DNA from: Parcubacteria group bacterium Greene0416_36
Lineage (GTDB): Bacteria; Patescibacteriota; Patescibacteriia; VMEV01
Assembly: GCA_007375725.1 (NCBI GenBank)
Contig: VMEV01000010.1
Coordinates: 1-49,164, forward strand
DNA: 49,164 nucleotides
Reading direction: 5' to 3'
Positions 10,338 through 28,950 of the stretch are shown one piece after another. Every line of letters begins with the position of its first letter. Position 1 is the first letter of the stretch. The notes under the pieces are model-generated. The model was not told where the DNA came from, did not search any database, and saw nothing but the letters and a program-made list of their open reading frames with translations. The position numbers and the translations under genes were made by a program.

Positions 10338-10598
10338 TCAAATTTTGGCGTCCGTTTCTCCCAAAAAAAGAGACCCAATTTTGCCGTTCAAATCATTGAT
10401 TTGCTTCGTAAAATCAAGGCGGAGCTCTTCTTCTGTACGGACGAAATTCGCGCGCTGATCCACGCTTAAATTTTTATCCGGATCTGCGATCATTGCATCC
10501 AACAAGTCCAATAAGTTTTCCACATAGCGGGACTGTTTTTGGATCTGGCTGTAATAGTAAGAAACGATTTCTTTTTTTTGTTCTTGGGATAAAGCCAT
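10338..10598 (-). CDS. Small hypothetical helical protein
   Basis: ORF from MALSQEQ, tightly packed in the minus-strand gene run. Confidence 0.6.
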   Translation of the reverse strand: MALSQEQKKEIVSYYYSQIQKQSRYVENLLDLLDAMIADPDKNLSVDQRANFVRTEEELRLDFTKQINDLNGKIGSLFLGETDAKI

Positions 10599-10602
10599 AA
10601 AA

Positions 10603-10821
10603 TTATTGCGCCAATTTTGCTCTAGCGGCACGAGTATCGGCGGCATCAACCTCTCTCATTTTCTCCATGATAACTGAGGGCAAAGGAGAACGTTTCAGCT
10701 CAGCAACCCAGCGGTCCGCCAGAGCGACTTTTTCTTTGTCCGACAAAGTTTCCGGTGTTTCCATCTTTTCTTCTGACGGAGCATCCGCTAATTTTTTTTC
10801 TGTCCTAATCTGTTCAGCCAT
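10603..10821 (-). CDS. Small hypothetical protein
   Basis: ORF from MAEQIRT; 4-nt gaps to both neighbours. Confidence 0.6.
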   Translation of the reverse strand: MAEQIRTEKKLADAPSEEKMETPETLSDKEKVALADRWVAELKRSPLPSVIMEKMREVDAADTRAARAKLAQ

Positions 10822-10825
10822 AAAG

Positions 10826-12262
10826 TTACAATAATAATTTAGCGCGCAAATCTTCCATATCGCTCTTTCCATTGCCGTCCGTGTCTTTTTTGAGGGGAGA
10901 TGTCTTGGAAATATTCACCTCATCCCCGTCATCCAGCCCATCGCCATCAGTATCGTTTTTGACAGGATCCGTTCGCACCGAACACACTTCCTCGAAGTCC
11001 GTTAGGCCATCCTTGTCAAAATCCAATTGGACCATCATTTTTTTCTGAGCATCGTCCAGATCACCACAATTTTTAGTTGCGAATCCTCCTAAAACTTCTC
11101 CATAATTGCCGGCAAAAATAACCGGCAAGTTATAGGATCGGCCGAGAAAAGTCCCTTTGGAGCATTGACCGGAGGATAGAGACAGCTCAAAGAATGCGGT
11201 GGGACAGAGCCCAGCGTCCACATCTTCTTTATCGGTTTTCCCGTTTTGGTTCGTGTCGCGGTCCCCCGGGTTAGATCCGTAATCATTGACTTCAATACCA
11301 TCTGATAAACCGTCACCGTCTTTATCCGTACTCAGCGGATCGGAACCAATGCCCAAAAATTCATCTCCATCACCCAAACCGTCGCCATCGGTATCAAACT
11401 TAGTTGGGTCCGTATTGAACCATAATTCTTTCTCATCCGGAATCCCATCTTTGTCATAATCCAAAATAAATTCCGTATTGCTCAATTTGTACGTACAAAC
11501 CGTCTTGGCGGATTCCAATGGAATCTTGGCACAATCTTTGGCGTCTCGGGCCTCGCGATACTGGACCCAGGAACTATATTGATCAAGGACCGTCTTATTT
11601 TTAATCTGGCCCTCGGCTGGAATATCGGATCGAAGCGCATTGACTAAACATAATTTGGAATATTCGAGAGATGTAATGCCGCCACAGACCGAGACACTCT
11701 CTTTGCCAGCGGCGAGAACCGCGAGATTCAAAGCGAGCACGCGGTCCTTGCACTCTACGGCCTCATGGCTATCGTCCAACGAATCGCAAATCCCCGCCTG
11801 GGCCTTATCAACCGCCATAGAGGCAATGCACCGCTCGCGAAGAGATACCGTAGAAATCATGGCGCATTTTTTCGGATCACCGCTCTCTCTGCCTACACGA
11901 AACAGACAATCATTTCTATAACCATCTTCGTAAATACCCAAGCACTGGTCTATGCTTTTGGCATTACTGATCACTTCTGTATGAATAAATTCGTCGATAC
12001 ACCCCTCTTTGGCATCTCCTTCGGCCAAGCCAACACAGCCTTCTTTGGTTGGAATCAAAGGGGGACTCACCAACCTGCCGCCCTCTTCAAAGACCGTATT
12101 GCCGGGTTCATCCAGCAAACGGCGAAAAGCAGGATCTATGCCGCTGGAATCCGGAATCGTCACATCTCCCTCTCCCACGCTGGAAAAAAACCAGACCCCT
12201 CCGGCTAACAAAATAACCGCAGATAAAGCAATGATGGCCCATTGAAATTTAGATAGATTCAT
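10826..12262 (-). CDS. Membrane-anchored Cys-rich protein with Ca-binding DxDxDG (TSP3/binary-toxin-like) repeats
   Basis: N-terminal TM (from MNLSKF), C-x-x-I...C helical repeats, multiple DTDGDGL.DG.E....TDP repeats. Confidence 0.85.
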   Translation of the reverse strand: MNLSKFQWAIIALSAVILLAGGVWFFSSVGEGDVTIPDSSGIDPAFRRLLDEPGNTVFEEGGRLVSPPLIPTKEGCVGLAEGDAKEGCIDEFIHTEVISNAKSIDQCLGIYEDGYRNDCLFRVGRESGDPKKCAMISTVSLRERCIASMAVDKAQAGICDSLDDSHEAVECKDRVLALNLAVLAAGKESVSVCGGITSLEYSKLCLVNALRSDIPAEGQIKNKTVLDQYSSWVQYREARDAKDCAKIPLESAKTVCTYKLSNTEFILDYDKDGIPDEKELWFNTDPTKFDTDGDGLGDGDEFLGIGSDPLSTDKDGDGLSDGIEVNDYGSNPGDRDTNQNGKTDKEDVDAGLCPTAFFELSLSSGQCSKGTFLGRSYNLPVIFAGNYGEVLGGFATKNCGDLDDAQKKMMVQLDFDKDGLTDFEEVCSVRTDPVKNDTDGDGLDDGDEVNISKTSPLKKDTDGNGKSDMEDLRAKLLL

Positions 12263-12272
12263 AGGGTGTAAA

Positions 12273-16401: not shown

Positions 16402-16782
16402 CTACCCTCTCATGGACACAGCTTCCCGATATTCGCTAGGGACTGCCATCTTCTCCCCTTTCACTTTTTTGGGAATATCGACGATTTTGATCGTCTTATC
16501 TAGGGCATGCAGGTATTTCATGAAAGTGCTGAGGCGAAAATCCACACGACCATTCTCAATACGAGACAAAAAACTTTTCTTAAATCCAGCTTTTTCTGCA
16601 AAGTCTGATTGAGTCATACCAGAATTTTCTCTTATCTCTAACATGTCTGAAATATACGAATGAATTAAACCTAATTTTTCAACATCTCTTTCCATTTTCA
16701 ACCTTCCTTTTGGATCATTAGCATATACTTCAGCCACATAAGATTCAAAAGAGGTATCTTCATTTTTATTATAGTTATGCAT
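16402..16782 (-). CDS. XRE-family HTH antitoxin (HigA-like)
   Basis: IRENSGMTQSDFAEKAGFKKSFLSRIENG HTH; downstream of a RelE/Gp49-like gene. Confidence 0.8.
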   Translation of the reverse strand: MHNYNKNEDTSFESYVAEVYANDPKGRLKMERDVEKLGLIHSYISDMLEIRENSGMTQSDFAEKAGFKKSFLSRIENGRVDFRLSTFMKYLHALDKTIKIVDIPKKVKGEKMAVPSEYREAVSMRG

Positions 16783-16789
16783 ATTTTTT

Positions 16790-17047
16790 TTATTCTATTT
16801 TAAGATTTTTTATAAAATCCATGTAGTAACCTTCAGCGAGTTCAATTTCCTGAAGTGGAATCTTATTCGATTTTTTTGCAAAAGCATGAAGCAATATAAT
16901 CTGCCTTGGATGATACAATATATAAAAAATTCTATAATTTATTCCATGGATCTCATCTCTTAGTGCCCAAACTTTAACAGGTATCTGGCCATTTGTTTTC
17001 TTATAAAAACAAAGACGCCAAGAATCTTCTAAAGGAATCATACACAT
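16790..17047 (-). CDS. RelE/ParE-superfamily (Gp49/HigB-like) toxin, apparently internally deleted
   Basis: FY...NG..PV and YRIFY......IILLHAFAKKSNKIP..EIELA motifs present; only 85 aa. Confidence 0.65.
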   Translation of the reverse strand: MCMIPLEDSWRLCFYKKTNGQIPVKVWALRDEIHGINYRIFYILYHPRQIILLHAFAKKSNKIPLQEIELAEGYYMDFIKNLKIE

Positions 17048-17149: not shown

Positions 17150-17713
17150 TTATTTCTCCTCCTGCTCACGTCCGACGTATTCCCGATTCTCGGTATTGAT
17201 GATCACGACTTCGCCTTCTTTGATGAAGAGCGGCACATTAATGGTGGCTCCGGTTTCGAGCTCGGCCTGCTTCATGACGGCTCCGGCGCTGTCTCCTTTG
17301 ACCCCGGGAGCGGTATTGACCACTTTGAGCGATACTTTCTTGGGAAGAGAAATGGTCACCAAATCATCCCCCAAAAAGAGTCCGTCCACCTTGGCTTCGG
17401 CCACGAGAAACTGGCCGTCTTCGCCTACCGCTTCGGTGCTAACCTGAAACTGCTCAAAATTGTCGTCCATGAAATAATAATTCGTGGCGTCTTTGTAAGT
17501 GAATTGCATGGCACGGCGAGTCACATCCGCCTCCTGTACGACTTCGTCCGATCGGAAGGTAACTTCGAGCGTCTTGCCATTTTTGACATTGCGCATCTTG
17601 ATGCGGCACATCATGCGGCGCTGAGCCATTTTGGAACGGTTCACCTCGGAAACGATCCAAGGATCATTCTCGTACATCATGGCCATTCCTTTGTGAAAAT
17701 CTCCGGCAGTCAT
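17150..17713 (-). CDS. efp: Translation elongation factor P
   Basis: YFMD.NFEQ, TAPGVKGDSA...K.AELETG..I.VPLFI.EG...I.T....Y..R. Confidence 0.95.
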   Translation of the reverse strand: MTAGDFHKGMAMMYENDPWIVSEVNRSKMAQRRMMCRIKMRNVKNGKTLEVTFRSDEVVQEADVTRRAMQFTYKDATNYYFMDDNFEQFQVSTEAVGEDGQFLVAEAKVDGLFLGDDLVTISLPKKVSLKVVNTAPGVKGDSAGAVMKQAELETGATINVPLFIKEGEVVIINTENREYVGREQEEK

Positions 17714-17842
17714 AAATTAGGCTATTAGGCATTAGCTTCTTAGCTTTTTAGAAGACAAAGTAACTAATCCGAAATGGATATAAAAAATAAAAATCTACTT
17801 ATAAACCTATATAATTAAGACCAAATTAGCCTTTTTGGGAGG

Positions 17843-17881
17843 AAAAAGCAAATCCTCGAGAGGAAGTTTCCAATCGAGGAT
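17843..17881 (-). terminator. Terminator closing array 1
   Basis: ATCCTCGA...TCGAGGAT stem followed by TTGCTTTTT on the minus strand. Confidence 0.6.
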
Positions 17882-17888
17882 ATATTTC

Positions 17889-18865
17889 GCCAAATAGATT
17901 TGGCATAAACAAAAATTCGAATTAAAGCGCAAAATATTAGTAAACAAGAAAGAAATTTGTTATAAAACTTCGCGAGAAAATTCTCGCCTCAAAACTAATT
18001 CAACGCATTATAATCTGCAGAAATTCGAAATATAGTGAGGGATAGTACGTCGATACATTAAAGAGTACTGCCTATTCGAGACCTAAAAAAAAGTCTCCAG
18101 TAACTTAAAAGGCTACAATTAAATCTACGCTACTGGACCGTAGTCCGGTAGGGATATCATCATCCGTCCTTTATAAAAGGACCAGAACCATAATCTAATA
18201 AAAAACAAGACGTTCAACATAAATCCGTAGAAAACATGCCGAGCTTCGAAAAGCTCCTAGGCATTAAAACAGGGTGAAACACGGCAAAGGGACCTACAGA
18301 ACACTGATCCAAAATCCCACAACTTTCATGTCTATTATGACCAGACACCTTAAACGAACAATAATGTGCGGCAACACAATCCGAACTACGACACTTAACT
18401 TGGATATCCGAGCAAAAATGCTCCTGAAAAGTAGAGAAATCTGAAACAGTGAACAGGACCCTAGGGGACCAAAATACACTACACATCCGTCCGAAGAATT
18501 CGGACCAATAATAAACCGCAGACTGCAGGAAACAAATATAGGACATCTCGCAGGACATTGATTTCGCCCTTGATAAAAGGGCCAGAAGAACAATTTATCT
18601 TACTTTAAGATAAGATAATTTAATAAATTACAAGGCAAATAAATACATACCGAGCCAATGAAGGCTCCTTGGCACTACAATAAACTAAAGTAAAACAGAC
18701 CATAGTAATCTAAAGGACGCCACTCCATCCGCGAGCAAAGACTCGCCAAAAATCTAAATGACCGCAAGCTAAACCAAGGGAAATAAAACCAATAAGCCCA
18801 AAGGCAAACAATCCGAGAACGAAAAGCTCTCCTATGCAATATTCTTCCTAAACAAACAGAAAGGC
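17889..18865 (-). ncRNA. Putative guide-RNA array 1: 12 hairpins and 11 complete pentamer-periodic tracts
   Basis: Hairpins start at 17889, 17972, 18078, 18166, 18241, 18328, 18410, 18489, 18566, 18652, 18731 and 18815. After each of the first 11, the + strand has a purine every 5 nt for 10-16 steps, starting exactly 5 nt from the stem. No credible ORF. Confidence 0.85.
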
Positions 18866-18890
18866 CTTTTCAAAGAACAGCAACCCAATA

Positions 18891-18919
18891 AATCTAGTCT
18901 AATAGCCAAAGAATGTCAA
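18891..18919 (-). promoter_or_regulatory. sigma70 promoter for array 1
   Basis: Minus strand TTGACA-17 nt-TAGATT, followed by boxA-like TGTTCTTTGAA (18869-18879). Confidence 0.75.
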
Positions 18920-18930
18920 TCCTCCCAACG

Positions 18931-18970
18931 AAAAAACAGCTTATTTTGTTCAATAAGCTGTTTTCTGTTT
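18931..18970 (-). terminator. Intrinsic terminator after the helicase gene
   Basis: aaaacagcttatt-ttgttc-aataagctgtttt. Confidence 0.7.
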
Positions 18971-18996
18971 CTTCTAAAAAACAAAAAGTAATATAG

Positions 18997-21030
18997 TTAT
19001 TTCTTCAAAAACGCACGGGCATCCAGACAACAATCTGCAAAGGTTTTGCCAGATATATAAGAGGTTCTTAGCTTTTCAGGGAGGGCGTAATAGACAAGCC
19101 CCTTAAATCTCTGATCATAACAGATCGTAACGGATTTGATTTTCCCGTCGCGTTCCGTACGGCCGCGGGCTTGCTTGATACGGATCTTGACCAGCCATTG
19201 ATGGATAGCGAAAGCGCCGTTTTTGCCGAACTTGCGATTCTCGAACTTCGACTCGGGAGAATTCGGATCAGGGTATCCAGGACGAAGGGTGATCACTACT
19301 TGAGCCAGACCATCCGGCAAGTCAATCCCTTCGGAAAAATTCTGCTCCGTACCGAGTAAAACCATGCCTTTGCCACCGCGAAACAATTCCACAGCTTCTT
19401 TGGGAGTTTTCGGCATAGTACCCAGCATCGCATCCGATCTCGGACTATTCGAACTGCGACCTCGGGAATAAGTGATGACATCGAGATTTTCTTTGTCCGG
19501 AGAGGAATAGAATAAGAACTTATCCAACTCTTGATGCGATCCAACCAGAACTAAAACACGAATCCCTTCGGCGTTAAAAAGTTTGCATTCCTTAACAATA
19601 CTTTCCAGGCTCTTGGCAGGTTCTCTATCCGAACGCACACTGTAAGCCAGACTCGGAGTGTCGCTCGGCATATAAATACGGGTGTTCTCAGCCGGGAAAC
19701 CGGATTCGAGAAAAAGATACTGAGGAAAATCAATGCCGGAAATATACCCAAAAACAGTACGGTCGCCAATGGTGGCGGACATCGCCAAAGTTCGGGACAA
19801 AAGCACTTTCTTACGAATCAGAGGCCTCACATGATGGGACTGGATGGTAAGGCGATTGATGACTTTTGGCCCCCTTCCTCCGTATTCTTCTTCTGGAATG
19901 GGTTCAGACACAAAATAACTGAATACATAGTTGAGTGCCATGTGCTTGATTTCATCATTTTCTTCCTTGGGAATAGCATAACGAAGGGACTGGATGTACC
20001 TCCAAAGATTGAAAAGAAGATTCTGCACCTCATTGAGAGCTTCGCGCCCTCCTTCCGCTTGGCTCGCCATTTTCTCCAATTCATTTTTTTTGGATTCCAA
20101 AGGAGAAGTGTCAATGGCTTCCAAGGCTTTGATGAGTTTTTTGATTTCATCATCTTCCAAGACGATTTTGGTGAAAGGAGGCTTATTCCTAGATACGATT
20201 TTCTTGAACACAACGAGAAATTTCTTGAGAGAGACGGACACACTTTCGTCCACTTTCTCCACGACCTCAATCGCGCGTTCTAAATGCCAGTCAGTAATAT
20301 CGTAAGAGAGGACATTGCGCACCAGTGGCGTGATATTGTGAACTTCATCCAGGACCACCGCGTCATGATCTTCCCAAACCCCTTTCTCGCTTTTAAAAAG
20401 CCTCATGATCAAATAAAAGGCATACGTGGTCACAACAATTCCCTCGTACTGCTTAGCCGCATATTTATGAGCATAATACGGACAGGGAACCGCCCCTTCT
20501 TCAAGAGTTTTTCCAGTCGCCTGATCCACCCGATGACCGCAGCTTCGCAGTATCGCACAAGGAATTTCATTGGCTTTCCACGCCGGCTTTTGATCCGGAT
20601 AATAAAGACAATCATGAGACTCTCTGCCTTCGAGCACAAATACCATATCCGAAAAACGCTTAGCGATTTGTTTGGCTTGAGCCAAATTGGGCACCACGTA
20701 GAAAATTCGTTTATAGCCATGCAATTTCCGAAGAACTGAAAGCCACACGATACCAATGAGAGACTTGCCGACGCCAGTTTCTCCCTCCAATAAAACTTGA
20801 TCATGGCCTTGGGATAGAAAACGAAAAGCCTTGAGCTGAGCCTCTCTCATTCGGAAATAACGCGGAATATGCCAAGGAAAACACTCCACATAAGGAGCCA
20901 ATGCCGGATTGGCAGCGACTTCCACAGCAAGCATTTCTCTTGTATACCCTTCCTGAGGCGATTCTTGTACGATCGGAATAGGGGAAGGTGTATCTGCAAT
21001 TGAACCCAATAATAATTGATCCGCCATCAT
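18997..21030 (-). CDS. DinG/Rad3-family SF2 helicase with probable FeS-binding cysteines
   Basis: GETGVGKS (motif I), DEVH (II), SAT (III), EGIDLP (V), QARGRTER (VI); GRESHDC...PC....C...PCPYY cysteine cluster. Confidence 0.88.
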   Translation of the reverse strand: MMADQLLLGSIADTPSPIPIVQESPQEGYTREMLAVEVAANPALAPYVECFPWHIPRYFRMREAQLKAFRFLSQGHDQVLLEGETGVGKSLIGIVWLSVLRKLHGYKRIFYVVPNLAQAKQIAKRFSDMVFVLEGRESHDCLYYPDQKPAWKANEIPCAILRSCGHRVDQATGKTLEEGAVPCPYYAHKYAAKQYEGIVVTTYAFYLIMRLFKSEKGVWEDHDAVVLDEVHNITPLVRNVLSYDITDWHLERAIEVVEKVDESVSVSLKKFLVVFKKIVSRNKPPFTKIVLEDDEIKKLIKALEAIDTSPLESKKNELEKMASQAEGGREALNEVQNLLFNLWRYIQSLRYAIPKEENDEIKHMALNYVFSYFVSEPIPEEEYGGRGPKVINRLTIQSHHVRPLIRKKVLLSRTLAMSATIGDRTVFGYISGIDFPQYLFLESGFPAENTRIYMPSDTPSLAYSVRSDREPAKSLESIVKECKLFNAEGIRVLVLVGSHQELDKFLFYSSPDKENLDVITYSRGRSSNSPRSDAMLGTMPKTPKEAVELFRGGKGMVLLGTEQNFSEGIDLPDGLAQVVITLRPGYPDPNSPESKFENRKFGKNGAFAIHQWLVKIRIKQARGRTERDGKIKSVTICYDQRFKGLVYYALPEKLRTSYISGKTFADCCLDARAFLKK

Positions 21031-21123
21031 TTTTTCCTTTCAGGAAAATTAATAAGAAACAAACTAAAACACGAACAGGTTCATTCAATCAGAAAACCCA
21101 TAATTTGTAAAGACTCGTCCAAT

Positions 21124-21153
21124 AAAAAAACACTCTCTTGGCGAGAATGTTTT
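21124..21153 (-). terminator. Possible terminator/attenuator between the RAMP-like gene and the helicase
   Basis: Minus strand aaaacattctc-gccaa-gagagtgtttt, then ttt. Confidence 0.5.
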
Positions 21154-21186
21154 AATTGTCCAATATTTCACTATAAAATCTATCGA

Positions 21187-22053
21187 TTATGTTTTTCCGG
21201 AATTCGCAGGAAGAGAAACTCCTTCCTTCACTTCTTCCTCTTCCATTTTATACGGAAGCGAAATGTATTCATAATCGTCTTCTTTCAAGAGTTCTTTCTT
21301 TACTTCTTGCACACGAACAATCTTGAAGGTACCGTTGGTGCCGTTACAGTTTACACGATAGGACCCGATTCCATAGATCACACCGCCGTTTTTGAGGCAT
21401 TGAAGCGCGATATCGATAGTCTTGGGACCCAAACGATCTTTGACTTCGCAGAGGAATTTGATCTGGGTGCCTTCGGGGTATTCGGGACGCACAATGCGGC
21501 AAGTGATTTCAGCTTTTGGAATAACACCGCGGTCTTCATTGACACGGAATTTTTCCTTTCCGACAATGCACATTTCCTGATCCACAAATTCGGCAGTATA
21601 CCCCAAAATCCTGAAAAAAGAACCGATAATGCTTCCGCTGGTCTTGGTGGAAACTTTCTTGCGATTGCCCAAATCCACATCACATCCCCCGCAACGAGTA
21701 GCCGCATAAATCCACTTGGCAGGCACGCCCGATTTACCAGAATCAGGATCGATCCACACTTTTTTCCTGGCAATTTCTATGCCCGGAAGCCCTTTTACCT
21801 TAACTTTCTTATCAGCAGAATCGATTTCCAATAATTTCTCTGGAGTCATCGGATCGCCCAAAAGTGGAGAGGTCGTTTGGATCGTGATTTCCAAAATGGT
21901 GATATATTTGGTTCCATACGAAACAGGAGAGGAACCTTTCTTTTCCTTTTTCTTCCCCTTTTCAGCGCTCGCCGCACTATCAGCAACGGTTTCAACCACG
22001 GGAATCGGTTCAGTCGCGACAGCAGAGGAACTATCATTTTTTTGTCTAGCCAT
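21187..22053 (-). CDS. Stand-alone RAMP/Cas7-like protein (288 aa)
   Basis: AAGGAG RBS before ATG 22053. LEITIQTTSPLL first strand, G.P...I.AA helix, RPEY...T.I.F and a C-terminal glycine-rich loop GG..YGIGSYR....G..GTF, which is the RAMP/Cas7 layout. Judged by eye, no HMM run. Confidence 0.75.
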   Translation of the reverse strand: MARQKNDSSSAVATEPIPVVETVADSAASAEKGKKKEKKGSSPVSYGTKYITILEITIQTTSPLLGDPMTPEKLLEIDSADKKVKVKGLPGIEIARKKVWIDPDSGKSGVPAKWIYAATRCGGCDVDLGNRKKVSTKTSGSIIGSFFRILGYTAEFVDQEMCIVGKEKFRVNEDRGVIPKAEITCRIVRPEYPEGTQIKFLCEVKDRLGPKTIDIALQCLKNGGVIYGIGSYRVNCNGTNGTFKIVRVQEVKKELLKEDDYEYISLPYKMEEEEVKEGVSLPANSGKT

Positions 22054-22112
22054 GCTAGATCTCCTTAAAAACAAAATACTCAATCTACACAAAACACTAA
22101 AAAATAACAATC

Positions 22113-22353
22113 GAGGTTCAAAGACCCCCTTTACAATACACTACTTAAAAATAAACAGATGAAAAATGAAGGAACATACTCTATTTCGAGGTTAAAACCT
22201 CCAAAACATTAACTTACGAAACAACAAATTAATTAACACCGTTTTAAAGAAATCAATAAAACAGTATATACCGCCCGCATAATGCAGGCCTAAACCTCAC
22301 AGGGATTGACGCAAATCCGCGCAATTATACTCAGAGGTAATCTGCAGGAAAAT
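22113..22353 (-). ncRNA. Putative guide-RNA array 2 (3 units) in the leader of the RAMP-like gene
   Basis: Hairpins 22113-22128, 22188-22201 and 22273-22289; purine every 5 nt on + for 11, 13 and 12 steps from 22133, 22206 and 22294; G.U pairs form only on the minus strand. Confidence 0.82.
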
Positions 22354-22499
22354 TGTCGTTCTAATTGTAAAGAACGTGTTCATCCAAGCATAACCCCAAA
22401 TACTTGTCAAATCTTCCAGGATATGCTTCAATGATGAGTCCAATGTAATTTCAGACCGAGAGACTATAAAACAAATTCCAATCAAAACAGGAGAAACAA

Positions 22500-23489
22500 A
22501 TGAACGATATCGCAACAAGACCAGTACGCGAAAAGAGTCCATGGACCGTGGCCTTTGAAAACAGAAAACATCTCGGAGATTTTTCTACCCCAGCTTGGAA
22601 ACAGGCATATGGTATTATCAATAAAGATTTTTCCAGATTCGAAATACTCGACTGCCCAAATAAAGCGGGACTTACCATTGACTGCGGGCACGCCAGAATC
22701 AAAAACCAAGCAATCGGGATAGAAGGAAACACCTTAATGGTGCACATCTCCGATGTCGCAAGCTTCATTCCCAAAGACAGCCCTCTGGATGTCGAAATGC
22801 AGAGCCGAGTCATATCCATACAAAATTCCAGGATTCTCCCCTTCCGGTTAGCAAAGGAACAGTTCTCGCTGGAACAGAATCAGAAAACCAAATGCCTCAC
22901 GTTCCAATGGGCATTCGATGAATACGGAGAAATCAATCAGTTGCGACGAAAAATATACCATTCCAATGTCGAGGTCCCGATATCGATTTCATTTGAACAA
23001 GCCGATGGCATCCTCGAGGATCCTCTACACAAATACCACCCAGTCATACGAAGCCTCAAATCGATCGGAGAACATCTGGTCGACCTGCGCATCCGCAATG
23101 AGTGGACATTCACGCGCGAACGAAAAAAAACATGGGTGGAAAAAAACGGACAATGGATTTTCACAGACTATATCGACGGGTCTCAATCCCCCAATGACTG
23201 GATCATGCAGGAGGTCATGATTCTAGTGAATTACACCGTGGCATCCCTGTTAGACCAATTGGGTATCCATGGATGCTACACCGATCCCTATCGCTCTCCC
23301 AATGGTATCCGCTATTGCCAAGCCACAGCCCCCATGCATAATTTGGAAGATCTTGTAAATCAAAGGATTCTATTGGCATTATTATCACTCGGGAAAATTC
23401 CTATACCCTATACCCTGGAAGAAATGGAGGAAATCAAAACCAAAACCAATCGCATGTACTTCGCCCGATCTTCGGGAGGGAAAAAATAA
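22500..23489 (+). CDS. RNB (RNase II/R catalytic)-domain protein, predicted inactive
   Basis: TID...LMVHISDVASFIP.DSPLD.E..R..S, FSL, EVMILVN and ATAPM..LEDLVNQRIL match RNB motifs; the catalytic DxDD is replaced by IKNQ. Confidence 0.75.
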   Translation: MNDIATRPVREKSPWTVAFENRKHLGDFSTPAWKQAYGIINKDFSRFEILDCPNKAGLTIDCGHARIKNQAIGIEGNTLMVHISDVASFIPKDSPLDVEMQSRVISIQNSRILPFRLAKEQFSLEQNQKTKCLTFQWAFDEYGEINQLRRKIYHSNVEVPISISFEQADGILEDPLHKYHPVIRSLKSIGEHLVDLRIRNEWTFTRERKKTWVEKNGQWIFTDYIDGSQSPNDWIMQEVMILVNYTVASLLDQLGIHGCYTDPYRSPNGIRYCQATAPMHNLEDLVNQRILLALLSLGKIPIPYTLEEMEEIKTKTNRMYFARSSGGKK

Positions 23490-23500
23490 AAAACAAACAA

Positions 23501-23661
23501 TTCTGTCCTGTCTATTTGCCTAGATCAAAACAAACTAAATTTGAATTTAGGTCCTTTATAATAAAGGACGAAAAAATTTCACATTATTCACGTCAAACAA
23601 ACCTAATTCACGTGGACTTAATTTCATTCCTGTTCGTCTCTGAGCCTCTCTAATCGAGGCT
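23501..23661 (+). ncRNA. Putative guide-RNA array 3 (2 units), opposite orientation, downstream of RNB-like gene 1
   Basis: Pyrimidine every 5 nt at 23501-23546 (10 steps) and 23588-23638 (11 steps); each tract ends 5 nt before a hairpin (23551-23569, 23643-23661) that is followed by GAAA/GGAAAT. Confidence 0.78.
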
Positions 23662-23668
23662 GGAAATC

Positions 23669-23717
23669 AAAAAGTAGCTTCTTCTCAAATTTCAGAAAAA
23701 GCTACTTTTATTTTTTT
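23669..23717. terminator. Bidirectional terminator between convergent arrays 3 and 4
   Basis: AAAAGTAGCTT...AAGCTACTTTTATTTTTTT. Confidence 0.7.
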
Positions 23718-23718
23718 C

Positions 23719-23957
23719 AGCCCCCAGAGAGGGCTCTTGAATATACTATAATTTAGAGTGCCTGAAAGAACAGAACAATAAGGCACGGAAAAGCAAACCG
23801 CGTTTTTAGAAAAACGCCAACACTTAACTCTTGATCGAAATAAAATAATACACAGGAATAAACTATAATAGAACAGCATCCGAGTATGGTGAGTACTCCT
23901 AGAATTGAATGGAATTTACAACAAAGGACAATGATGAGCACCAATCTACAGTAAAAG
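23719..23957 (-). ncRNA. Putative guide-RNA array 4 (3 units)
   Basis: Hairpins 23719-23735, 23800-23817 and 23882-23898; purine every 5 nt from 23740 (12 steps), 23822 (10 of 11) and 23903 (11). Confidence 0.82.
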
Positions 23958-23966
23958 TACCCAATG

Positions 23967-23995
23967 AAACTAGCAATTGGATAGAGGGATGTCAA
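23967..23995 (-). promoter_or_regulatory. sigma70 promoter for array 4
   Basis: Minus strand TTGACA-17 nt-TAGTTT with TG extended -10. Confidence 0.7.
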
Positions 23996-24081
23996 GAGCA
24001 AGCCCTTGTACAATCGATCCGGATATGCTTCAATACTCTCGATTTTCAGTATATTTATCTCTCATTTTAAGGAGTCCAAAA

Positions 24082-25029
24082 ATGGCTAAAAATGGCCAAA
24101 AAAAGAAGATCAACTGGAAAGAGTATTTTGAAAAAAGACAGAATTCGTATCTGTCGGATGCGTCACGCGAAGAATTCGTCAAACATCTGCATTCTGCAGC
24201 ATCCGAAAATAAAAAAATAGAAAGGACAATAATCACCAGCATCACATTCGACAAGGAAATCTATATGAATGAGGCGATACTGATCGAATATCCCTATATT
24301 CATATCAGCGTCCCGGATATAGTCAGTCTCGTTACTCCCAAGAAGACACTGGATAAAGAATTGTACGAGAGAGCCTCTTCCGTTAAAGATAACCCTCTTT
24401 TTCCGGAAGATCTCATCAACCTTCGATCCTCTTTCAAGCATGATGAACTTCGAAATGCTTATACTCTCTCTTGGAAATTTGGCGATGCCGGAGAAATTCA
24501 AGAACCCAAATTTTATCCCAGCCAAATTCTATCAATTGGATATATCCAACCTTCGCCAAGCGCTGAAGCTAAAGACTATCCCAAGAACTTGGAACAAATC
24601 GGACTAAAACTCATTGATCGCAGAATCAAAACGTTTCAGCTCTTCAAGAAAGAGGAAAAATTGCCAGTTGCAGAGAAAGAAGGCTATAAAATTTTCGAAT
24701 GCTACCTCAGAAACTCCACCATGAGCTGGGTTGAAAAAGAACTTGCCATCTTTGCCAATATCCAAGCTGGGGAACTATTTCATCAGAAAGGCATAGCCGC
24801 ATGTTTTGCCTCTCCCTATGGTTCTCCCTGTGAAACCCACTATGCTCCCATCATGCGGCCGCTGGATTCCTATCGAGATCTCATCAATCAGCGAGCACTC
24901 TTGTCAATTTTCACCGGACTCAAAAAGGATTTCCCCTATACTCCCGCGCAGATAGCGAAAATAAATGAAAGGATTCAAACACGGTACAGCGCGTGGAAAA
25001 ATCTAGAAAAGAAAAATTCTAATCTATGA
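24082..25029 (+). CDS. Second RNB-like protein (paralogue), predicted inactive
   Basis: AAGGAG RBS before ATG 24082; IHISVPDI...LD.E..ERASSV, ELAIFAN and HYAPIMRPLDSYRDLINQRAL; catalytic aspartate motif lost. Confidence 0.7.
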   Translation: MAKNGQKKKINWKEYFEKRQNSYLSDASREEFVKHLHSAASENKKIERTIITSITFDKEIYMNEAILIEYPYIHISVPDIVSLVTPKKTLDKELYERASSVKDNPLFPEDLINLRSSFKHDELRNAYTLSWKFGDAGEIQEPKFYPSQILSIGYIQPSPSAEAKDYPKNLEQIGLKLIDRRIKTFQLFKKEEKLPVAEKEGYKIFECYLRNSTMSWVEKELAIFANIQAGELFHQKGIAACFASPYGSPCETHYAPIMRPLDSYRDLINQRALLSIFTGLKKDFPYTPAQIAKINERIQTRYSAWKNLEKKNSNL

Positions 25030-25056
25030 AATTGATCGGTTTCCAAAAAAACCATC

Positions 25057-25100
25057 AAAAAAGTAGCCGATATTTAACCATCAGGCTACTTTTATTTTTT
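25057..25100. terminator. Bidirectional terminator between RNB-like gene 2 and array 5
   Basis: AAAAGTAGCC...GGCTACTTTTATTTTTT, nearly the same as 23669-23717. Confidence 0.7.
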
Positions 25101-25102
25101 CC

Positions 25103-25482
25103 GTGGATTGAATCCACCTGCACACAAATTGATTATGGCTTGAGTCAAGGCAATCCGAAATAATATAGAGAAATCTACGATAATTCAAAAAACAGAACAG
25201 CAATCCGCGCTCTTTTCTAAAAGCGCCTTAAATTTACATTAAATCAATGTAAGTTACACCGGTCGAGACTAAAGAGGTACAATTCGCCTGATAAGTCAGG
25301 CCAGCGATAAAAACCAACTCAAACTACATAAATCTGATATACGTAAATATGACGAAACCATTCGCGTCTGAAAAGACGCCTAGACAAGAAAGCAACGAAA
25401 TCAACACTAAGCCAAATAACAGAACAATAATCCGCGCCCCATTCAATGAGCGCCTACAATAAAAACAAGATTAAATAGAAAA
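25103..25482 (-). ncRNA. Putative guide-RNA array 5 (5 hairpins; 4 complete tracts plus a short leader tract)
   Basis: Hairpins 25103-25117, 25207-25226, 25286-25301, 25364-25379 and 25434-25453; purine every 5 nt from 25122 (17 steps), 25231 (11), 25306 (11), 25384 (10) and 25458 (5). Confidence 0.85.
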
Positions 25483-25505
25483 CACAACAAATTAAGAACT
25501 CATCA

Positions 25506-25534
25506 AACTTATACAATCAATCAATGATTGTCAA
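25506..25534 (-). promoter_or_regulatory. sigma70 promoter for array 5
   Basis: Minus strand TTGACA-17 nt-TAAGTT, then boxA-like GTTCTTAA. Confidence 0.7.
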
Positions 25535-25539
25535 GGGTG

Positions 25540-25571
25540 TGTCGCAAAAACATAATAATGTCTTTGCGACA
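25540..25571. promoter_or_regulatory. Palindromic operator-like site TGTCGCAA-N16-TTGCGACA (second copy at 34375-34406)
   Basis: Identical half-sites and spacing at two loci, each between back-to-back TTGACA boxes. Confidence 0.65.
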
Positions 25572-25577
25572 AAATTC

Positions 25578-25606
25578 TTGACAATTGATTTTAGAAAATT
25601 TATAAT
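25578..25606 (+). promoter_or_regulatory. Consensus sigma70 promoter of the mazEF-like operon
   Basis: TTGACA-17 nt-TATAAT. Confidence 0.85.
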
Positions 25607-25629
25607 ACACACAAATAATGTGTAAAGAT

Positions 25630-25890
25630 ATGTCAACTATCACACTCTCACCCAATACGAAAGAACGCATCAATGTCATGCTTCCACGACGGATCATCCG
25701 TTCGATCGGCCGTCTATCGAAAAATAGAAAACGAAGCCAATTCATCGCAACCGCGGTCGATTTTTATATTGATTCAATGCAAAACAAAAAACTCAAATCT
25801 CTTCTACAAGAAGGAGCGCAAAAAAGATCCGAAAGAGATCAGATAATCACCGAAGAAATGGGCCTCATCGATACGGTTTATGAAAAATAA
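25630..25890 (+). CDS. Ribbon-helix-helix antitoxin (MazE/EndoAI-like)
   Basis: RINVMLP...I......RSQFI..AV pattern; overlaps the start of the toxin gene. Confidence 0.8.
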   Translation: MSTITLSPNTKERINVMLPRRIIRSIGRLSKNRKRSQFIATAVDFYIDSMQNKKLKSLLQEGAQKRSERDQIITEEMGLIDTVYEK

Positions 25891-26248
25891 GACCCTTTTC
25901 CCAAAGCGAGGCGAAATATATCTCGTCAATTTTGATCCTACAGTAGGAGCGGAGATGAAAAAAACACGGCCGGCTCTCATTTTACAAAATGATATTGCAA
26001 ACAAATATAGCGCCATAACCATCATCGCAGCAATCACCTCTCAATTCGAACTGCCTCTCTACCCTACTGAAGTTTTATTGGACTCTTCCGCATGCCGGCT
26101 AGACAAAGAATCAGTCATAGTACTCAATCAAATCCGATCCATCGACAAAACACGCCTGATCAAAAAAATCGGAGAAATTCCAGCGAAGTCATTACAGCAA
26201 ATAGAAATAGCACTAAAAATAAGCCTGGGTCTTATAAAGATAGAATAA
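25880..26248 (+). CDS. mazF: PemK/MazF-family toxin endoribonuclease
   Basis: KRGEIYLVNFDPTVGAE.KKTRPALILQND..N, QIRSIDK.RL. Confidence 0.93.
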   Translation: MKNKTLFPKRGEIYLVNFDPTVGAEMKKTRPALILQNDIANKYSAITIIAAITSQFELPLYPTEVLLDSSACRLDKESVIVLNQIRSIDKTRLIKKIGEIPAKSLQQIEIALKISLGLIKIE

Positions 26249-26361
26249 AATCCTCCTCGATTTCGGGAGGGTTTTGTTTTCATCCCCCTTGCCAGCCTCC
26301 CTCCCTTTCCACTAATCTAAACCCAGAATCGGAGACCCCCCTAATAAGCTAAAGCCTAGTT

Positions 26362-28950
26362 ATGTCCGAACCCACACCCATGCTACGCCAGTATTTTGAG
26401 ATCAAGCGCCAGCATCCGGACTCGATCGTGATGTTTCGATTGGGGGATTTTTATGAGATGTTTGGGGAGGACGCGAAGGTGGCGTCGAGGATTTTGGGGA
26501 TCACCCTCACGGCTCGTGGACGCGGGACGGAGAATGAGATCGCCATGTGCGGCATCCCCCAGCATAATATCACCGTGCATGTGGGGAAACTCACAACCGC
26601 CGGAAAATCCGTGGCGATCTGCGACCAGACCAGTGATCCGAATCTGCCGGGAATAGTGGAGAGGAACGTGACAAGAGTGGTCACGCCAGGAACCACGCTC
26701 GACTCGAGCAATCTGGACGAGAAAAAAAATAATTATATCGTGGCGATCATAGCCCAAAAAGGACGATACGGTTTGGCCCTCGCGGATCTGGGAACCGGAC
26801 ACTTTCAGGCAACAGAAATTGACGGCGGAGAAGAGCTGACCCAACAAATACAAAAACTCCGCCCCAGCGAGGTACTTCATGACGGGGAGCCTCTCTCCGG
26901 ATCTTTTTTCCAGAAAGAATTCCATCTGCCGGACTGGGAAGGACCCAAGACACTATTTGCGGCGCAGTTTGGCAGGCCCGATCTCTCAGGATTCGGCTTT
27001 ATCAATATGCCTTTGGCCGAAGAGGCGGCGGCGATTCTGCTTTATTATCTCAAAAATACCCAAAAAACCGCGCTCTCCCATATCGACTCCATTTCTCGCT
27101 ATGTCTGGGAAGACAAAATGATTCTGGATGCCTCGACCATCCGCAATCTAGAATTGTTTGAAAATAATTACGACCGGAGCCGGAATAATACCCTGTTCTC
27201 AATTTTGGATTTCACGGCCACCTCGATGGGGGCTAGAGTTTTACGAAACTGGATCACCTTGCCCCTCGGAGACAAAGACCGAATAGAAGAGCGCTCCGAA
27301 GGAGTCGAGTGGCTCTCTAAAAACAAAGAAGCAAGAACCGCGGTCAAAGAGCATCTGGACAAAATAGCGGACATCGAAAGAATCTCCGGGCGTATCGGAT
27401 GCCTGCGCGCCGGGCCCAAGGATCTGATTGCCATGGCTCACTCTCTTCGAGAAATTCCAGAGATTAAAGAAATACTCAAACCCTCCCAAGAATCAGCGAA
27501 TTCAATATTAAATAAGCTGGAAAAAGAATTGGATCCAATAGAACCGGTGGGCGAACTTATCGCCAAAAGTATTGCGGAGGAGCCTCCTGCGCTCGTTTCG
27601 GACGGCGGAGTGATCCGCAATGGATACAATCCAGATCTTGACCTACTCCGGTCCATTTCCAAAGGCGGCAAGGACTGGATCGGGGAATTTGAGACACGGG
27701 AAATCGAAAAAACAAAAATTTCGTCGCTCAAGGTACGGTACAACCGTGTCTTCGGGTATTATATCGAAATTTCAAAAACCAATTTGGACCGCGTCCCGCC
27801 CCATTATATCCGGAGGCAAACCCTCTCCAATGCTGAACGCTTCACGGTCGAAGAGCTCAAGAATTACGAAGACAAAATATTGGGAGCCGAGGCGAAAATT
27901 TTGTCGCTGGAAAATGAACTATGGAATCAAATAATCGGACAAATTTCCAAATATTTGGGAGAGATCAAAAAACAATCGCATTTGCTGGCTGAGATCGACG
28001 CCCTCTATTCCCTGGCGGAATGCGCCTACCAGCGGAATTATACCAAACCCGAATTCGTGGAATCCGACGAAATTCGGATTGAAGAAGGACGCCACCCGGT
28101 CATCGAGACCTTACTTCCAGCGGGCACCTACATCCCAAATGACACTCTTTTGAATAACCAAACCCACCAATTCATTTTGCTCACTGGCCCCAATATGGCC
28201 GGTAAATCCAGCTATCTTCGGCAAGTGGCTCTCATCTTGCTCCTCTCCCACATCGGCAGTTTTGTGCCGGCTAAAAAAGCCGCGGTCTCAATCACCGACC
28301 GTATTTTCACGCGCGTTGGAGCCGAGGACCGCCTCTCGGAAGGGCAGTCCACCTTCATGGTGGAAATGCAGGAGGCCTCCAATATCATTCATAACGCGAC
28401 TGGAAACAGCCTTATTTTGCTCGACGAGCTGGGTCGCGGCACCAGCACTTACGATGGAGTGTCTTTGGCCTGGGCCATCTCGGAATACATCCACAATCAT
28501 CTCAAAGCCAAAACCATTTTTGCGACCCACTATCATGAACTCATCGAGTTCGCGAATTCTCTTCCTCGCGCGAAAAATTATTCCGTGGCCGTGTCGGAAC
28601 ATAAAGGAGGCGTGGTATTTCTCCGAAAAATTATTCCTGGCGGGATCAATAAAAGCTACGGCATTGCCGTAGCCGCGCTCGCCGGGCTCCCCAAACAAAT
28701 CCTCGAGCGAGCCCATGAACTACTGGCGGATCTAGAAGGACAAATCCATCTGGGAAGCAAACCCAAATCCAATCAAACCGCCCTCCCCTTTTTCGCTCCC
28801 CCGCCCAAATCCGATCCAGCAGTAGAAACGGTCCTTCTCGAAATCAAAAACATCGATATCAACCAAACCACGCCGATGGAGGCGATGAGGAAATTGGAGG
28901 AGTGGAAAAATAAGCTAACAAACAACAAATCCCCCTTAATCCCCCTTTGA
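26362..28950 (+). CDS. mutS: DNA mismatch repair protein MutS
   Basis: TPMLRQY, FRLGDFYEMF, TGPNMAGKSSYLRQ, DELGRGTST and ATHYHEL motifs. Confidence 0.98.
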   Translation: MSEPTPMLRQYFEIKRQHPDSIVMFRLGDFYEMFGEDAKVASRILGITLTARGRGTENEIAMCGIPQHNITVHVGKLTTAGKSVAICDQTSDPNLPGIVERNVTRVVTPGTTLDSSNLDEKKNNYIVAIIAQKGRYGLALADLGTGHFQATEIDGGEELTQQIQKLRPSEVLHDGEPLSGSFFQKEFHLPDWEGPKTLFAAQFGRPDLSGFGFINMPLAEEAAAILLYYLKNTQKTALSHIDSISRYVWEDKMILDASTIRNLELFENNYDRSRNNTLFSILDFTATSMGARVLRNWITLPLGDKDRIEERSEGVEWLSKNKEARTAVKEHLDKIADIERISGRIGCLRAGPKDLIAMAHSLREIPEIKEILKPSQESANSILNKLEKELDPIEPVGELIAKSIAEEPPALVSDGGVIRNGYNPDLDLLRSISKGGKDWIGEFETREIEKTKISSLKVRYNRVFGYYIEISKTNLDRVPPHYIRRQTLSNAERFTVEELKNYEDKILGAEAKILSLENELWNQIIGQISKYLGEIKKQSHLLAEIDALYSLAECAYQRNYTKPEFVESDEIRIEEGRHPVIETLLPAGTYIPNDTLLNNQTHQFILLTGPNMAGKSSYLRQVALILLLSHIGSFVPAKKAAVSITDRIFTRVGAEDRLSEGQSTFMVEMQEASNIIHNATGNSLILLDELGRGTSTYDGVSLAWAISEYIHNHLKAKTIFATHYHELIEFANSLPRAKNYSVAVSEHKGGVVFLRKIIPGGINKSYGIAVAALAGLPKQILERAHELLADLEGQIHLGSKPKSNQTALPFFAPPPKSDPAVETVLLEIKNIDINQTTPMEAMRKLEEWKNKLTNNKSPLIPL

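What the first reader, a model, noticed from the sequence alone, without database searches (positions are those of the whole stretch)
17889..25453. Hairpins conserve structure and flanks rather than sequence: a Cas6-independent processing or capping signal
Stems differ (GAGCUU, GUCCGAA, GCCCUU, GCGAG, GCCUGA, GCGUCU and others) but all pair over about 5-8 bp. In the RNA sense they are nearly always preceded by G and followed by G(G/A)(A/N), typically GGAU or GAAU. Several apparent mismatches become G.U pairs only on the predicted transcribed strand (18328, 18815, 22113, 22273, 23719), independently agreeing with promoter orientation. Stems at 18166 and 23551 (GUCCUUU...AAAGGAC) are near-identical between oppositely oriented arrays, implying common origin. 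No Cas6 is present, so how units are matured and acquired is open.
Basis: partly seen in the sequence, partly recalled or inferred. Interest (0 to 1): 0.75.

Follow-up and report, generated by a model that had tools for sequence, protein, structure and literature searches.

The report
Guide-RNA arrays of a VIPR system
The hairpins are real and are the end-caps of about 25 small guide RNAs that belong to a VIPR system, a CRISPR-like RNA-guided DNA silencer first described in 2026, here carried with a DinG-like helicase in the chromosome of an ultra-small groundwater bacterium.

Summary
There are 25 hairpins of 5-8 bp. A G precedes 24 of 25, and G(G/A) follows all 25. They lie about 80 nt apart in four intergenic stretches and occur nowhere else in the 1.03-Mb genome.

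They are tandem pentamers, Y-N-N-W-K:
- Autocorrelation z is 5.5, 4.4 and 6.6 at lags 5, 10 and 15.
- 241 of 257 pentamers start with a pyrimidine.
- The register is locked to the downstream hairpin in 20 of 20 tracts.

The "RAMP" (21187-22053, minus strand) is a Vipr-family protein. Its family profile matches the solved SUSP1 Vipr protein at E 9e-15, and its model has a Cas7-like fold.

The locus is therefore a VIPR system (bioRxiv 10.64898/2026.04.26.720920): pentamer-coded guide RNAs, each ending in a structured 3' tail, which here is a short hairpin. A DinG-like helicase accompanies vipr in 8 of 10 related loci. The two RNB-like proteins lack the catalytic DxDD motif and are private to this genome.

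Verdict: a new member of a recently described kind. Its tails keep their shape but not their sequence.

The parts
17836..17881 (-). Terminator-like hairpin (8-bp stem, 14-nt loop) with a U-rich tail, closing array 1.
   Evidence: Read from the sequence. The scan does not list it because its loop limit is 8 nt.
17889..18831 (-). Array 1: 12 vrRNA-like units. Each is a pentamer tract of 58-90 nt followed by a 14-21-nt hairpin.
   Evidence: Hairpin starts lie 74-110 nt apart.
18891..18919 (-). Promoter-like site TTGACA-17-TAGATT upstream of array 1.
   Evidence: 10 of 12 matches. This is a consensus match only.
18931..18966 (-). Terminator-like hairpin after the helicase gene. It separates that gene from array 1.
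18997..21030 (-). DinG/XPD-family helicase of 677 aa, the likely accessory (vap) gene.
   Evidence: Pfam Helicase_C_2, DEAD and DEAD_2. PADLOC typeIV_DinG at 6e-40. Homologues lie beside vipr in 8 of 10 related loci.
21187..22053 (-). vipr: a 288-aa RAMP protein of the Vipr family with a Lys-rich, low-confidence N-terminus of about 50 aa.
22113..22289 (-). Array 2: 3 units directly upstream of vipr.
22500..23489 (+). RNB-like protein 1 (329 aa). It is a stand-alone RNB domain whose DxDD motif is replaced.
23490..23661 (+). Array 3a: 2 units on the plus strand. They begin at the stop codon of RNB-like 1 and are followed by a terminator-like hairpin at 23671-23717.
23719..23898 (-). Array 3b: 3 units on the minus strand.
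24082..25029 (+). RNB-like protein 2 (315 aa from the ATG), 29% identical to RNB-like 1. Its motif is also degenerate.
25103..25453 (-). Array 4: 5 units. Units 1 and 4 share a 64-nt segment that is 75% identical.
25555..25584 (-). Promoter-like site TTGTCA-18-CATTAT upstream of array 4.
   Evidence: 9 of 12 matches. This is a consensus match only.

Best explanation
The region is a chromosomal VIPR (Viral Interference Programmable Repeat) system of the helicase-associated kind.

Arrays and units. The four intergenic stretches are arrays of about 25 guide RNAs (vrRNAs). Each unit reads G(G/A)AU, then 10-18 pentamers Y-N-N-W-K, then a 14-21-nt hairpin.

Mapping onto the published model (inferred). 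By analogy with the solved type II complex, one Vipr protomer binds each pentamer. It holds the K and Y letters (equivalents of G2 and Y3 of the canonical GGY) and exposes the two letters after the Y for gapped pairing with DNA.

Role of the hairpin. The hairpin is the vrRNA 3' tail. It begins exactly at a pentamer boundary, so it fixes the register and the end of the filament. It would also protect the 3' end and mark the unit boundary in a long precursor. Precursors would be made from promoter-like sites upstream of arrays 1 and 4. Only the shape and immediate flanks of the tail are constrained, so the stems have drifted by compensatory change.

Effector (inferred). The DinG-like helicase is the effector or accessory partner.

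Shown here:
- the Vipr homology and fold;
- the pentamer periodicity and its phase lock to the hairpin;
- the hairpin grammar;
- the locus specificity;
- the conserved vipr-helicase pairing.

Inferred, not shown:
- transcription and processing;
- binding of Vipr;
- the pairing rule;
- the helicase's role;
- the targets.
For: Protein:
- The 288-aa protein has 79 relatives at E up to 0.001 among 1.84 billion representatives.
- A profile of 62 of them matches PDB 36pp_D, 'SUSP1 Vipr protein', at E 9.1e-15 over 190 residues.
- Its AlphaFold model (pLDDT 82) hits Csm3/Cas7 chains at Foldseek probability 1.0 and E about 1e-7.
- By the alignment and the residue roles given in section 5 of 10.64898/2026.04.26.720927, thumb R138 corresponds to R189, W178 to Y232 and R179 to R233. 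The two G1 contacts, H17 and D177, correspond to D67 and S231. That fits loss of the first G in the repeat.

RNA tracts:
- Lags 5, 10 and 15 give z of 5.5, 4.4 and 6.6 in the 20 inter-hairpin tracts.
- Position 1 is U in 78% and C in 16% of pentamers. Position 5 is G or U in 84%.
- 241 of 257 pentamers start with Y, against a background of 58%. The Y phase counted from the 3' hairpin is the same in 20 of 20 tracts but scattered when counted from the 5' end.
- U at -10, Y at -5 and G at -1 are seen in 25, 25 and 24 of 25 hairpins.

Literature:
- vrRNAs are 9-16 pentamer repeats followed by a structured 3' tail and are encoded in arrays beside vipr. Types III-V carry nucleases or helicases (Results of 10.64898/2026.04.26.720920).
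- Alternative repeats NNNGG, YNNNG and NNNNG are in print (Methods), as are WGT/NN-type motifs (passages of 10.64898/2026.10.21.760802).

Relatives:
- vipr is found in 10 of 401 sampled genomes of the phylum.
- The helicase is adjacent in 8 of 10 loci examined.
- G276 has 24 units with the same grammar: YNNNG pentamers, then G, a hairpin AGCAAG..CUUGCU, then RGURU. Its intergenic lag-5 z is 6.2.
- G004 shows lag-5, -10 and -15 z of 3.6, 2.3 and 4.0.
Against: - There is no RNA evidence. No RNA run holds the stretch, so ends, processing and even transcription are unproven.
- No target was found. Gapped searches of the own genome, using two or three variable letters per pentamer and skips of 0-3, gave nothing above shuffled guides.
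- The repeat lacks the canonical GG. Position 5 is G in only 35% of pentamers, so the published pairing rule may not transfer.
- The tail is a plain 14-21-nt hairpin. It is not the conserved 40-60-nt pseudoknot of the characterised type II.
- I could not see the figures or supplements that define the seven VIPR types, so the type assignment is open.
- In G004 I could not find a clean register with my chosen anchors.
Confidence: 0.85

Rival explanations
1. A new CRISPR-like array. Its 'repeats' would be conserved only as hairpins and its 60-70-nt 'spacers' would be acquired from invaders, with maturation independent of Cas6.
For: The unit length of about 80 nt resembles repeat plus spacer. A RAMP and a DinG-like helicase are adjacent. 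A hairpin lies at each unit end.
Against: - The 'spacers' have a strict 5-nt periodicity in phase with the hairpin. Captured foreign DNA would not have this.
- The arrays contain no conserved direct repeat.
- The window holds no cas1, cas2 or cas6.
- The RAMP matches Vipr, not a Cas family.
- Two units are diverged duplicates of each other.
Confidence: 0.03
2. The hairpin belongs functionally to the unit downstream of it, as a 5' handle made of hairpin plus G(G/A)AU, rather than to the tract upstream as a 3' tail. Alternatively, mature RNAs keep a hairpin at both ends.
For: G(G/A)AU always follows the hairpin at a fixed distance (25 of 25). The 64-nt duplicated segment in array 4 covers a hairpin plus the start of the following tract.
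Against: The pentamer register is locked to the downstream hairpin in 20 of 20 tracts, while tract lengths modulo 5 take all five values. The published order is tract then tail.
Confidence: 0.1
3. The hairpins are generic RNA or DNA elements unrelated to Vipr, such as terminators, attenuators or REP/MITE-like palindromes.
For: The consensus scan lists 7 of the 25 hairpins as terminator-like because U-rich sequence follows them. The genome carries other palindromic repeats.
Against: - No U-run follows most of them. G(G/A)AU follows all of them.
- Their spacing and register are strict.
- They are confined to the vipr locus.
- The same grammar recurs beside vipr in another genome.
Confidence: 0.02

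Closest known systems
VIPR systems (Vipr protein plus vrRNAs; bioRxiv 10.64898/2026.04.26.720920, 10.64898/2026.04.26.720927 and 10.64898/2026.10.15.759431). The characterised example is type II of Escherichia phage SUSP1.
   Same: - A small RAMP protein homologous to Vipr.
- Guide RNAs under 100 nt, made of tandem pentamers followed by a structured 3' tail.
- Several guides in arrays in the intergenic DNA beside vipr.
- One accessory gene.
- No adaptation genes.
   Different: - The repeat is Y-N-N-W-K, not Y-N-N-G-G.
- The tail is a 14-21-nt hairpin whose sequence differs from unit to unit (21 distinct arms of 25). It is not a conserved 40-60-nt pseudoknot.
- There are about 25 guides rather than 4.
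- The accessory gene is a DinG-like helicase, not a DNA-binding Vap1.
- The system is chromosomal, between efp and mutS of a 1-Mb groundwater bacterium, not in a phage.
VIPR variants with non-canonical repeats: YNNNG, NNNGG and NNNNG (Methods of 10.64898/2026.04.26.720920), and WGT/NN and TGH/NN clusters (10.64898/2026.10.21.760802). Also VIPR types III-V, which carry nuclease or helicase vap genes.
   Same: A degenerate fixed trinucleotide, read here as W-K-Y, with two variable letters. A helicase as accessory gene. A defence-island-like setting, with toxin-antitoxin pairs on both sides.
   Different: I could read only text and figure legends, so I cannot say which type this is or whether hairpin-tailed contiguous arrays are drawn there. 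The printed array forms are staggered, hammerhead-interspersed and single. The RNB-like genes are not mentioned in the text: the words 'RNase' and 'DinG' each occur 0 times.
Type IV-A CRISPR-Cas (Csf2/Cas7 filament on a crRNA, plus the DinG helicase Csf4).
   Same: It works alike in outline: a RAMP filament on a guide RNA paired with a DinG-family helicase and no nuclease in the locus. The helicase matches a PADLOC typeIV_DinG model over its full length (6e-40).
   Different: - There are no CRISPR repeats and no Csf1, Csf3 or Csf5.
- NCBIfam cas_csf4 scores 21 bits against a cut-off of 400.
- tblastn of the helicase finds nothing in 72,556 plasmids or 50,697 phages at E 1e-5.
Type I-E/I-F crRNAs, which carry a 3' repeat hairpin left by Cas6.
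   Same: A 3' stem-loop caps each guide, and a short constant 5' tag follows the previous hairpin.
   Different: Here the hairpin sequence is not constant, no Cas6 is present, and the guide is read discontinuously.

Membership tests
VIPR system | A Vipr protein: a minimal RAMP homologous to characterised Vipr. | tested here: met
   The family profile matches PDB 36pp_D (SUSP1 Vipr) at E 9.1e-15. The single sequence alone does not reach it. The model's best Foldseek hits are Csm3/Cas7.
VIPR system | The RAMP hallmarks: a thumb Arg and a glycine-rich loop. | tested here: met
   R189-P190 are present in 61 and 62 of 62 family members. G228, G238, G241 and F243 are near-invariant. Their equivalence to R138 and the G-loop of SUSP1 Vipr is read from the alignment.
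VIPR system | vrRNA made of 9-16 tandem pentamers with fixed and hypervariable positions. | tested here: met
   There are 10-18 pentamers per tract. Lag-5, -10 and -15 z are 5.5, 4.4 and 6.6. Y is at position 1 in 241 of 257 pentamers. Positions 2-3 are near background composition.
VIPR system | The canonical GGY fixed trinucleotide. | tested here: not met
   The fixed letters are W-K-Y. Position 5 is G in 35% and U in 49% of pentamers, and position 4 is A or U in 79%. Non-canonical repeats, including YNNNG and WGT/NN, are in print as VIPR variants.
VIPR system | A structured 3' tail directly after the repeat tract. | tested here: met
   A hairpin starts at a pentamer boundary in 20 of 20 tracts. 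The form differs: a simple hairpin with variable sequence.
VIPR system | An accessory (vap) gene beside vipr. | tested here: met
   A DinG-like helicase is adjacent here and in 8 of 10 related loci. Helicase vap genes are stated for types III-V.
VIPR system | vrRNAs are expressed, bind Vipr and direct gapped DNA recognition. | not testable with these tools
   No RNA run is listed. There is no target in the own genome.
CRISPR-Cas | Direct repeats of conserved sequence that separate unique spacers. | tested here: not met
   The four stretches hold no repeat family. They hold only two-copy chance matches and one duplicated unit.
CRISPR-Cas | cas1/cas2 adaptation genes and Cas6 at the locus. | tested here: not met
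   None appears among 23 window proteins scanned with Pfam. A Cas1 fragment lies on another contig, C10.
Type IV-A CRISPR-Cas | Csf4 (DinG) equivalog together with Csf1, Csf2, Csf3 and Csf5. | tested here: not met
   cas_csf4 scores 21 bits against a cut-off of 400. No Csf proteins were found.
RNase II/R (RNB) exoribonucleases | An RNB domain. | tested here: met
   Pfam RNB at 2e-26 and 7e-15. Structural TM is about 0.8 to RNB domains.
RNase II/R (RNB) exoribonucleases | The four catalytic acidic residues of motif I (D...D.DD) and the flanking CSD/S1 RNA-binding domains. | tested here: not met
   Aligned to RNase R (8cdu), TIDGADAKDLDDA corresponds to TIDCGHARIKNQA. The paralogue has FDKEIYMNEA. 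The proteins are 329 and 315 aa with no CSD or S1 hit. The role of these residues is recalled from the RNase II literature, not from a call.

The most novel reading that the evidence does not exclude
In this helicase-type VIPR lineage the guide's 3' tail is recognised purely by shape and position: a G-flanked hairpin abutting the last pentamer. One genome can therefore carry about 25 guides with about 21 different tails. The two catalytically dead, stand-alone RNB-domain proteins wedged between the arrays would be a new class of accessory factor that grips the hairpin-capped 3' ends. They could measure or protect the ends, or hand guides to Vipr. With its DinG partner the system would be a living analogue, or a relative, of the step from VIPR to type IV CRISPR.
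Probability: 0.15. Interest if true: 0.65.

Novelty: new member of a known kind. Interest (0 to 1): 0.45.

Why it matters
VIPR was described only in 2026, and only a phage type II system has been dissected. This locus is a chromosomal, helicase-linked example in an ultra-small groundwater bacterium.

It offers three things:
- A natural covariation experiment. About 25 guides share the pentamer scaffold and a register-locked hairpin, yet hardly any tail sequence. That separates what the tail must be (shape, position, G flanks) from what it happens to be.
- A degenerate W-K-Y repeat together with matching substitutions at the two published G1 contacts. That is a testable link between protein and code.
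- A RAMP-filament-plus-DinG pairing that parallels type IV-A CRISPR.

It also shows how such arrays can be mistaken for Cas6-less CRISPR arrays.

Tried and rejected
- Rfam gathering scan of the window: 0 matches. ARAGORN: 0 tRNAs.
- Pfam, NCBIfam and PADLOC gave nothing for the 288-aa protein. The word-indexed search found only the protein itself.
- The single-sequence PDB search did not reach Vipr. Only the profile did.
- Contiguous BLAST of the 20 tracts against the own genome gave only 13-23-nt chance matches with E of 0.01 or more.
- Gapped target searches in the own genome, with the locus masked, used two or three letters per pentamer and skips of 0-3. Best scores equalled those of shuffled guides. 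The two mild outliers among 160 tests were 21/26 and 21/24.
- I did not run target scans of public viral or metagenome collections. They need a derived gapped pattern, which I am not to type.
- No RNA holder is listed for the array. Contigs of four DNA runs from one study are identical to the window across 17600-25700, so they say nothing on array turnover and may be the source of this DNA.
- tblastn of the helicase against plasmids and phages: no match.
I used the genome search instead.
- The word-indexed search for RNB-like 1 found only the protein itself. No PDB match was found for RNB-like 2.
The type table, fig. 5A and figs. S17-S22 may already show this architecture.
- A MAFFT alignment of all 25 hairpins misplaced the 7 longest, so the covariance model and pair counts rest on 18 of the 25.
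- In G004 my hairpin anchors gave no clean pentamer register.
Full report
**Setting.** The window is contig C22 of a 1.03-Mb, 25-contig genome of about 45% G+C. DNA runs that hold it are labelled groundwater metagenome. Earlier notes of this scan call the organism Parcubacteria/Patescibacteria; I did not test that. The finding spans the DNA between efp (17150-17713, minus) and a HicB-like/MazF pair followed by mutS (25618-28950). That DNA holds four genes: a DinG/XPD-family helicase (18997-21030, minus), a 288-aa protein with no Pfam family (21187-22053, minus), and two short RNB-domain proteins (22500-23489 and 24082-25029, plus). The four genes are separated by four A+T-rich non-coding stretches with strong A-over-T skew on the plus strand.

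**Observation.**
- Stems are 5-8 bp and loops 3-8 nt.
- In the assigned RNA sense, 22 hairpins are on the minus strand. The two at 23551 and 23643 are on the plus strand.
- G precedes 24 of 25, and G(G/A) follows 25 of 25.
- The 5' arms are 21 different pentamers among the 25.
- Nine hairpins contain G.U pairs that would be A-C mismatches on the other strand.

The hairpins are not a chance feature.
- G-C-closed hairpins followed by G(G/A) occur at 0.44 per kb genome-wide. There are 9 in one 1-kb bin here, and there is no second cluster.
- A covariance model from 18 of the hairpins finds 16 matches with E below 0.06, all in the locus. Nothing elsewhere is better than E 0.39.
- The four outer base pairs are paired in 72 of 72 cells, with compensatory changes at all four. 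The rows were picked as hairpins, so that count is partly circular.

The segments between hairpins (54-90 nt, median 64-65) are not random.
- Letter identity at lags 5, 10 and 15 exceeds shuffles by z of 5.5, 4.4 and 6.6.
- When right-justified on the following hairpin they resolve into pentamers Y-N-N-W-K.
- 241 of 257 pentamers begin with a pyrimidine, against a background of 58%.
- The pyrimidine phase counted from the downstream hairpin is identical in 20 of 20 tracts. Counted from the upstream end it is scattered, because tract lengths modulo 5 take all five values.
U at -10 and Y at -5 are present in 25 of 25 hairpins.

**The protein.**
- The word-indexed search found only the protein itself. 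An exhaustive HMMER search found 79 relatives, mostly 190-290 aa.
- A profile of 62 of them has no Pfam family. It matches one solved structure, 36pp chain D, 'SUSP1 Vipr protein', at E 9.1e-15.
- The AlphaFold model (pLDDT 82) is Cas7-like. Csm3 and type VII Cas7 chains head the Foldseek list at probability 1.0.

**Literature.** The name led to three 2026 preprints. For 10.64898/2026.04.26.720920 I read the abstract, Results, Discussion, Methods sections 18 and 20, and the supplementary figure legends. For 10.64898/2026.04.26.720927 I read the abstract and section 5. For 10.64898/2026.10.15.759431 I read the abstract and passages on tails.

They describe VIPR systems as follows.
- A minimal RAMP, Vipr, polymerises one protomer per pentamer on a vrRNA of about 100 nt made of 9-16 YNNGG repeats.
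- It sequesters GGY and presents NN for gapped pairing to DNA, skipping one target base.
- A structured 3' tail follows the repeats.
- Guides lie singly or in arrays beside vipr.
- There are seven types, of which III-V carry nuclease or helicase accessory genes.
- Alternative repeats NNNGG, YNNNG and NNNNG are noted.

A fourth preprint, 10.64898/2026.10.21.760802 (passages only), reports 21 clusters with non-canonical pentamers such as WGT/NN next to Vipr-like folds. The locus fits this description point by point, with W-K-Y as the fixed letters and a short hairpin as the tail.

**Link between protein and code (inferred).** The alignment and the contacts listed give these equivalences.
- Retained: thumb R138 (G2) corresponds to R189, W178 (stacks on G2) to Y232, and R179 (Y3 pocket) to R233.
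- Replaced: both contacts of G1, H17 and D177, correspond to D67 and S231.

The repeat position that corresponds to G1 is the one that has lost its G.

**Relatives.**
- vipr is patchy: 2 of 41 close relatives with the single protein, and 10 of 401 sampled genomes of the phylum with the profile.
- In ten loci from other genomes, the helicase is adjacent in 8. One of the other two ends 1.4 kb after vipr. No locus has an RNB-like gene.
- Long intergenic stretches beside vipr show 5-nt periodicity in G276 (z 6.2) and G004 (z 3.6), whereas coding DNA there shows 3-nt periodicity.
- G276 has 24 units with the same grammar: YNNNG pentamers, G, a hairpin, then RGURU. Its hairpins are mostly AGCAAG..CUUGCU with a few covarying variants. 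I selected those rows by a pattern.
- G004 has GCGCC..GGCGC-type hairpins and a NYN-domain gene beside a longer, 604-aa Vipr homologue.
- So the hairpin tail is a family feature. Its sequence diversity within one locus is special to this genome among those I looked at.

**Array organisation.**
- Array 1 has a promoter-like site (18919-18891) after the helicase terminator, and a terminator-like hairpin at its end. It looks like its own transcription unit, which would need processing into 12 RNAs.
- Units are contiguous, without ribozymes.
- One 64-nt segment (a hairpin plus the start of the next tract) occurs twice in array 4 at 75% identity. By eye, the differences in the tract fall mostly on pentamer positions 2-4. 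Both copies keep a paired stem. This points to growth by duplication and point mutation, not by spacer capture.

**RNB-like proteins.**
- They are stand-alone RNB domains.
- They are paralogous at 29% identity, with a third copy on contig C19.
- They have no close relatives.
- They lack three of the four motif-I acidic residues when aligned to RNase R. I expect them to bind rather than degrade RNA.
- Whether they belong to the system is open.

**What stays open.** Transcription, RNA ends, the processing enzyme, the pairing rule for this repeat, the targets and the helicase's role are all unresolved. No RNA data exist, and no self-target was found. The scan has met VIPR arrays before on other DNA. 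Those notes reached me after I had identified the system, and I did not test them.

**Verdict.** The system is a new member of a kind that entered print in 2026, with a shape-only tail and two dead-RNB neighbours as its unusual points.

Noticed in passing
G000 contig C10 (L033) 62-505 and 784-972: A Cas1 C-terminal fragment (Pfam 1.2e-7) lies next to three copies of a 38-45-nt direct repeat spaced 71-73 nt apart. This is a canonical CRISPR remnant on a 2.5-kb contig of the same bin. A 465-aa open frame with no Pfam family follows it.
   Followed up: partly
window 25170-25233 and 25397-25460: Two units of array 4 share a 64-nt segment at 75% identity (a hairpin plus the start of the next tract). 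Differences in the tract fall mostly on pentamer positions 2-4. Related starts (GGAU.GCUGUUCU) also occur in array 3b.
   Followed up: partly
window 16402-17047 and 25618-26248: Toxin-antitoxin pairs flank the locus on both sides: Gp49-like with HTH_3, and HicB-like with PemK/MazF. This gives a defence-island-like setting between efp and mutS.
   Followed up: no
G000 contig C19 44383-45090 (L009 6384-7091, minus): A third, shorter RNB-like paralogue (Pfam RNB 6e-14). The scan found no hairpin array around it.
   Followed up: partly
L008 (G004 contig C20) 4540-5103 and 5316-7130: In this relative the Vipr homologue is 604 aa, so it carries about 350 extra C-terminal residues with no Pfam family. 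A NYN-domain (PIN-like RNase) gene sits next to it where G000 has RNB-like genes.
   Followed up: no
L025 (G276 contig C1) 3189-12372: Two vipr paralogues, one helicase and at least 24 hairpin-tailed units in five intergenic stretches. This is the largest related array set that I saw.
   Followed up: partly
G000 contigs C2 (about 3491-3510) and C3 (about 3132-3153 and 23320-23339): Near-identical palindromes of the form TCCCCCTT-TGAC-AAGGGGGA recur. They probably belong to the palindromic repeat family that earlier notes of this scan describe in this genome.
   Followed up: no
window 21904-22053 (residues 1-50 of the Vipr homologue): A Lys/Ser/Ala-rich N-terminal extension of low model confidence (pLDDT about 50-60). 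Most family members lack it.
   Followed up: no
window 8567-15266: A run of large secreted or surface-type proteins: a Baseplate_J-like protein, proteins with TSP3 repeats, and a 997-aa protein with a weak MtsC-like match. They lie between rpoB and the toxin-antitoxin pair.
   Followed up: no
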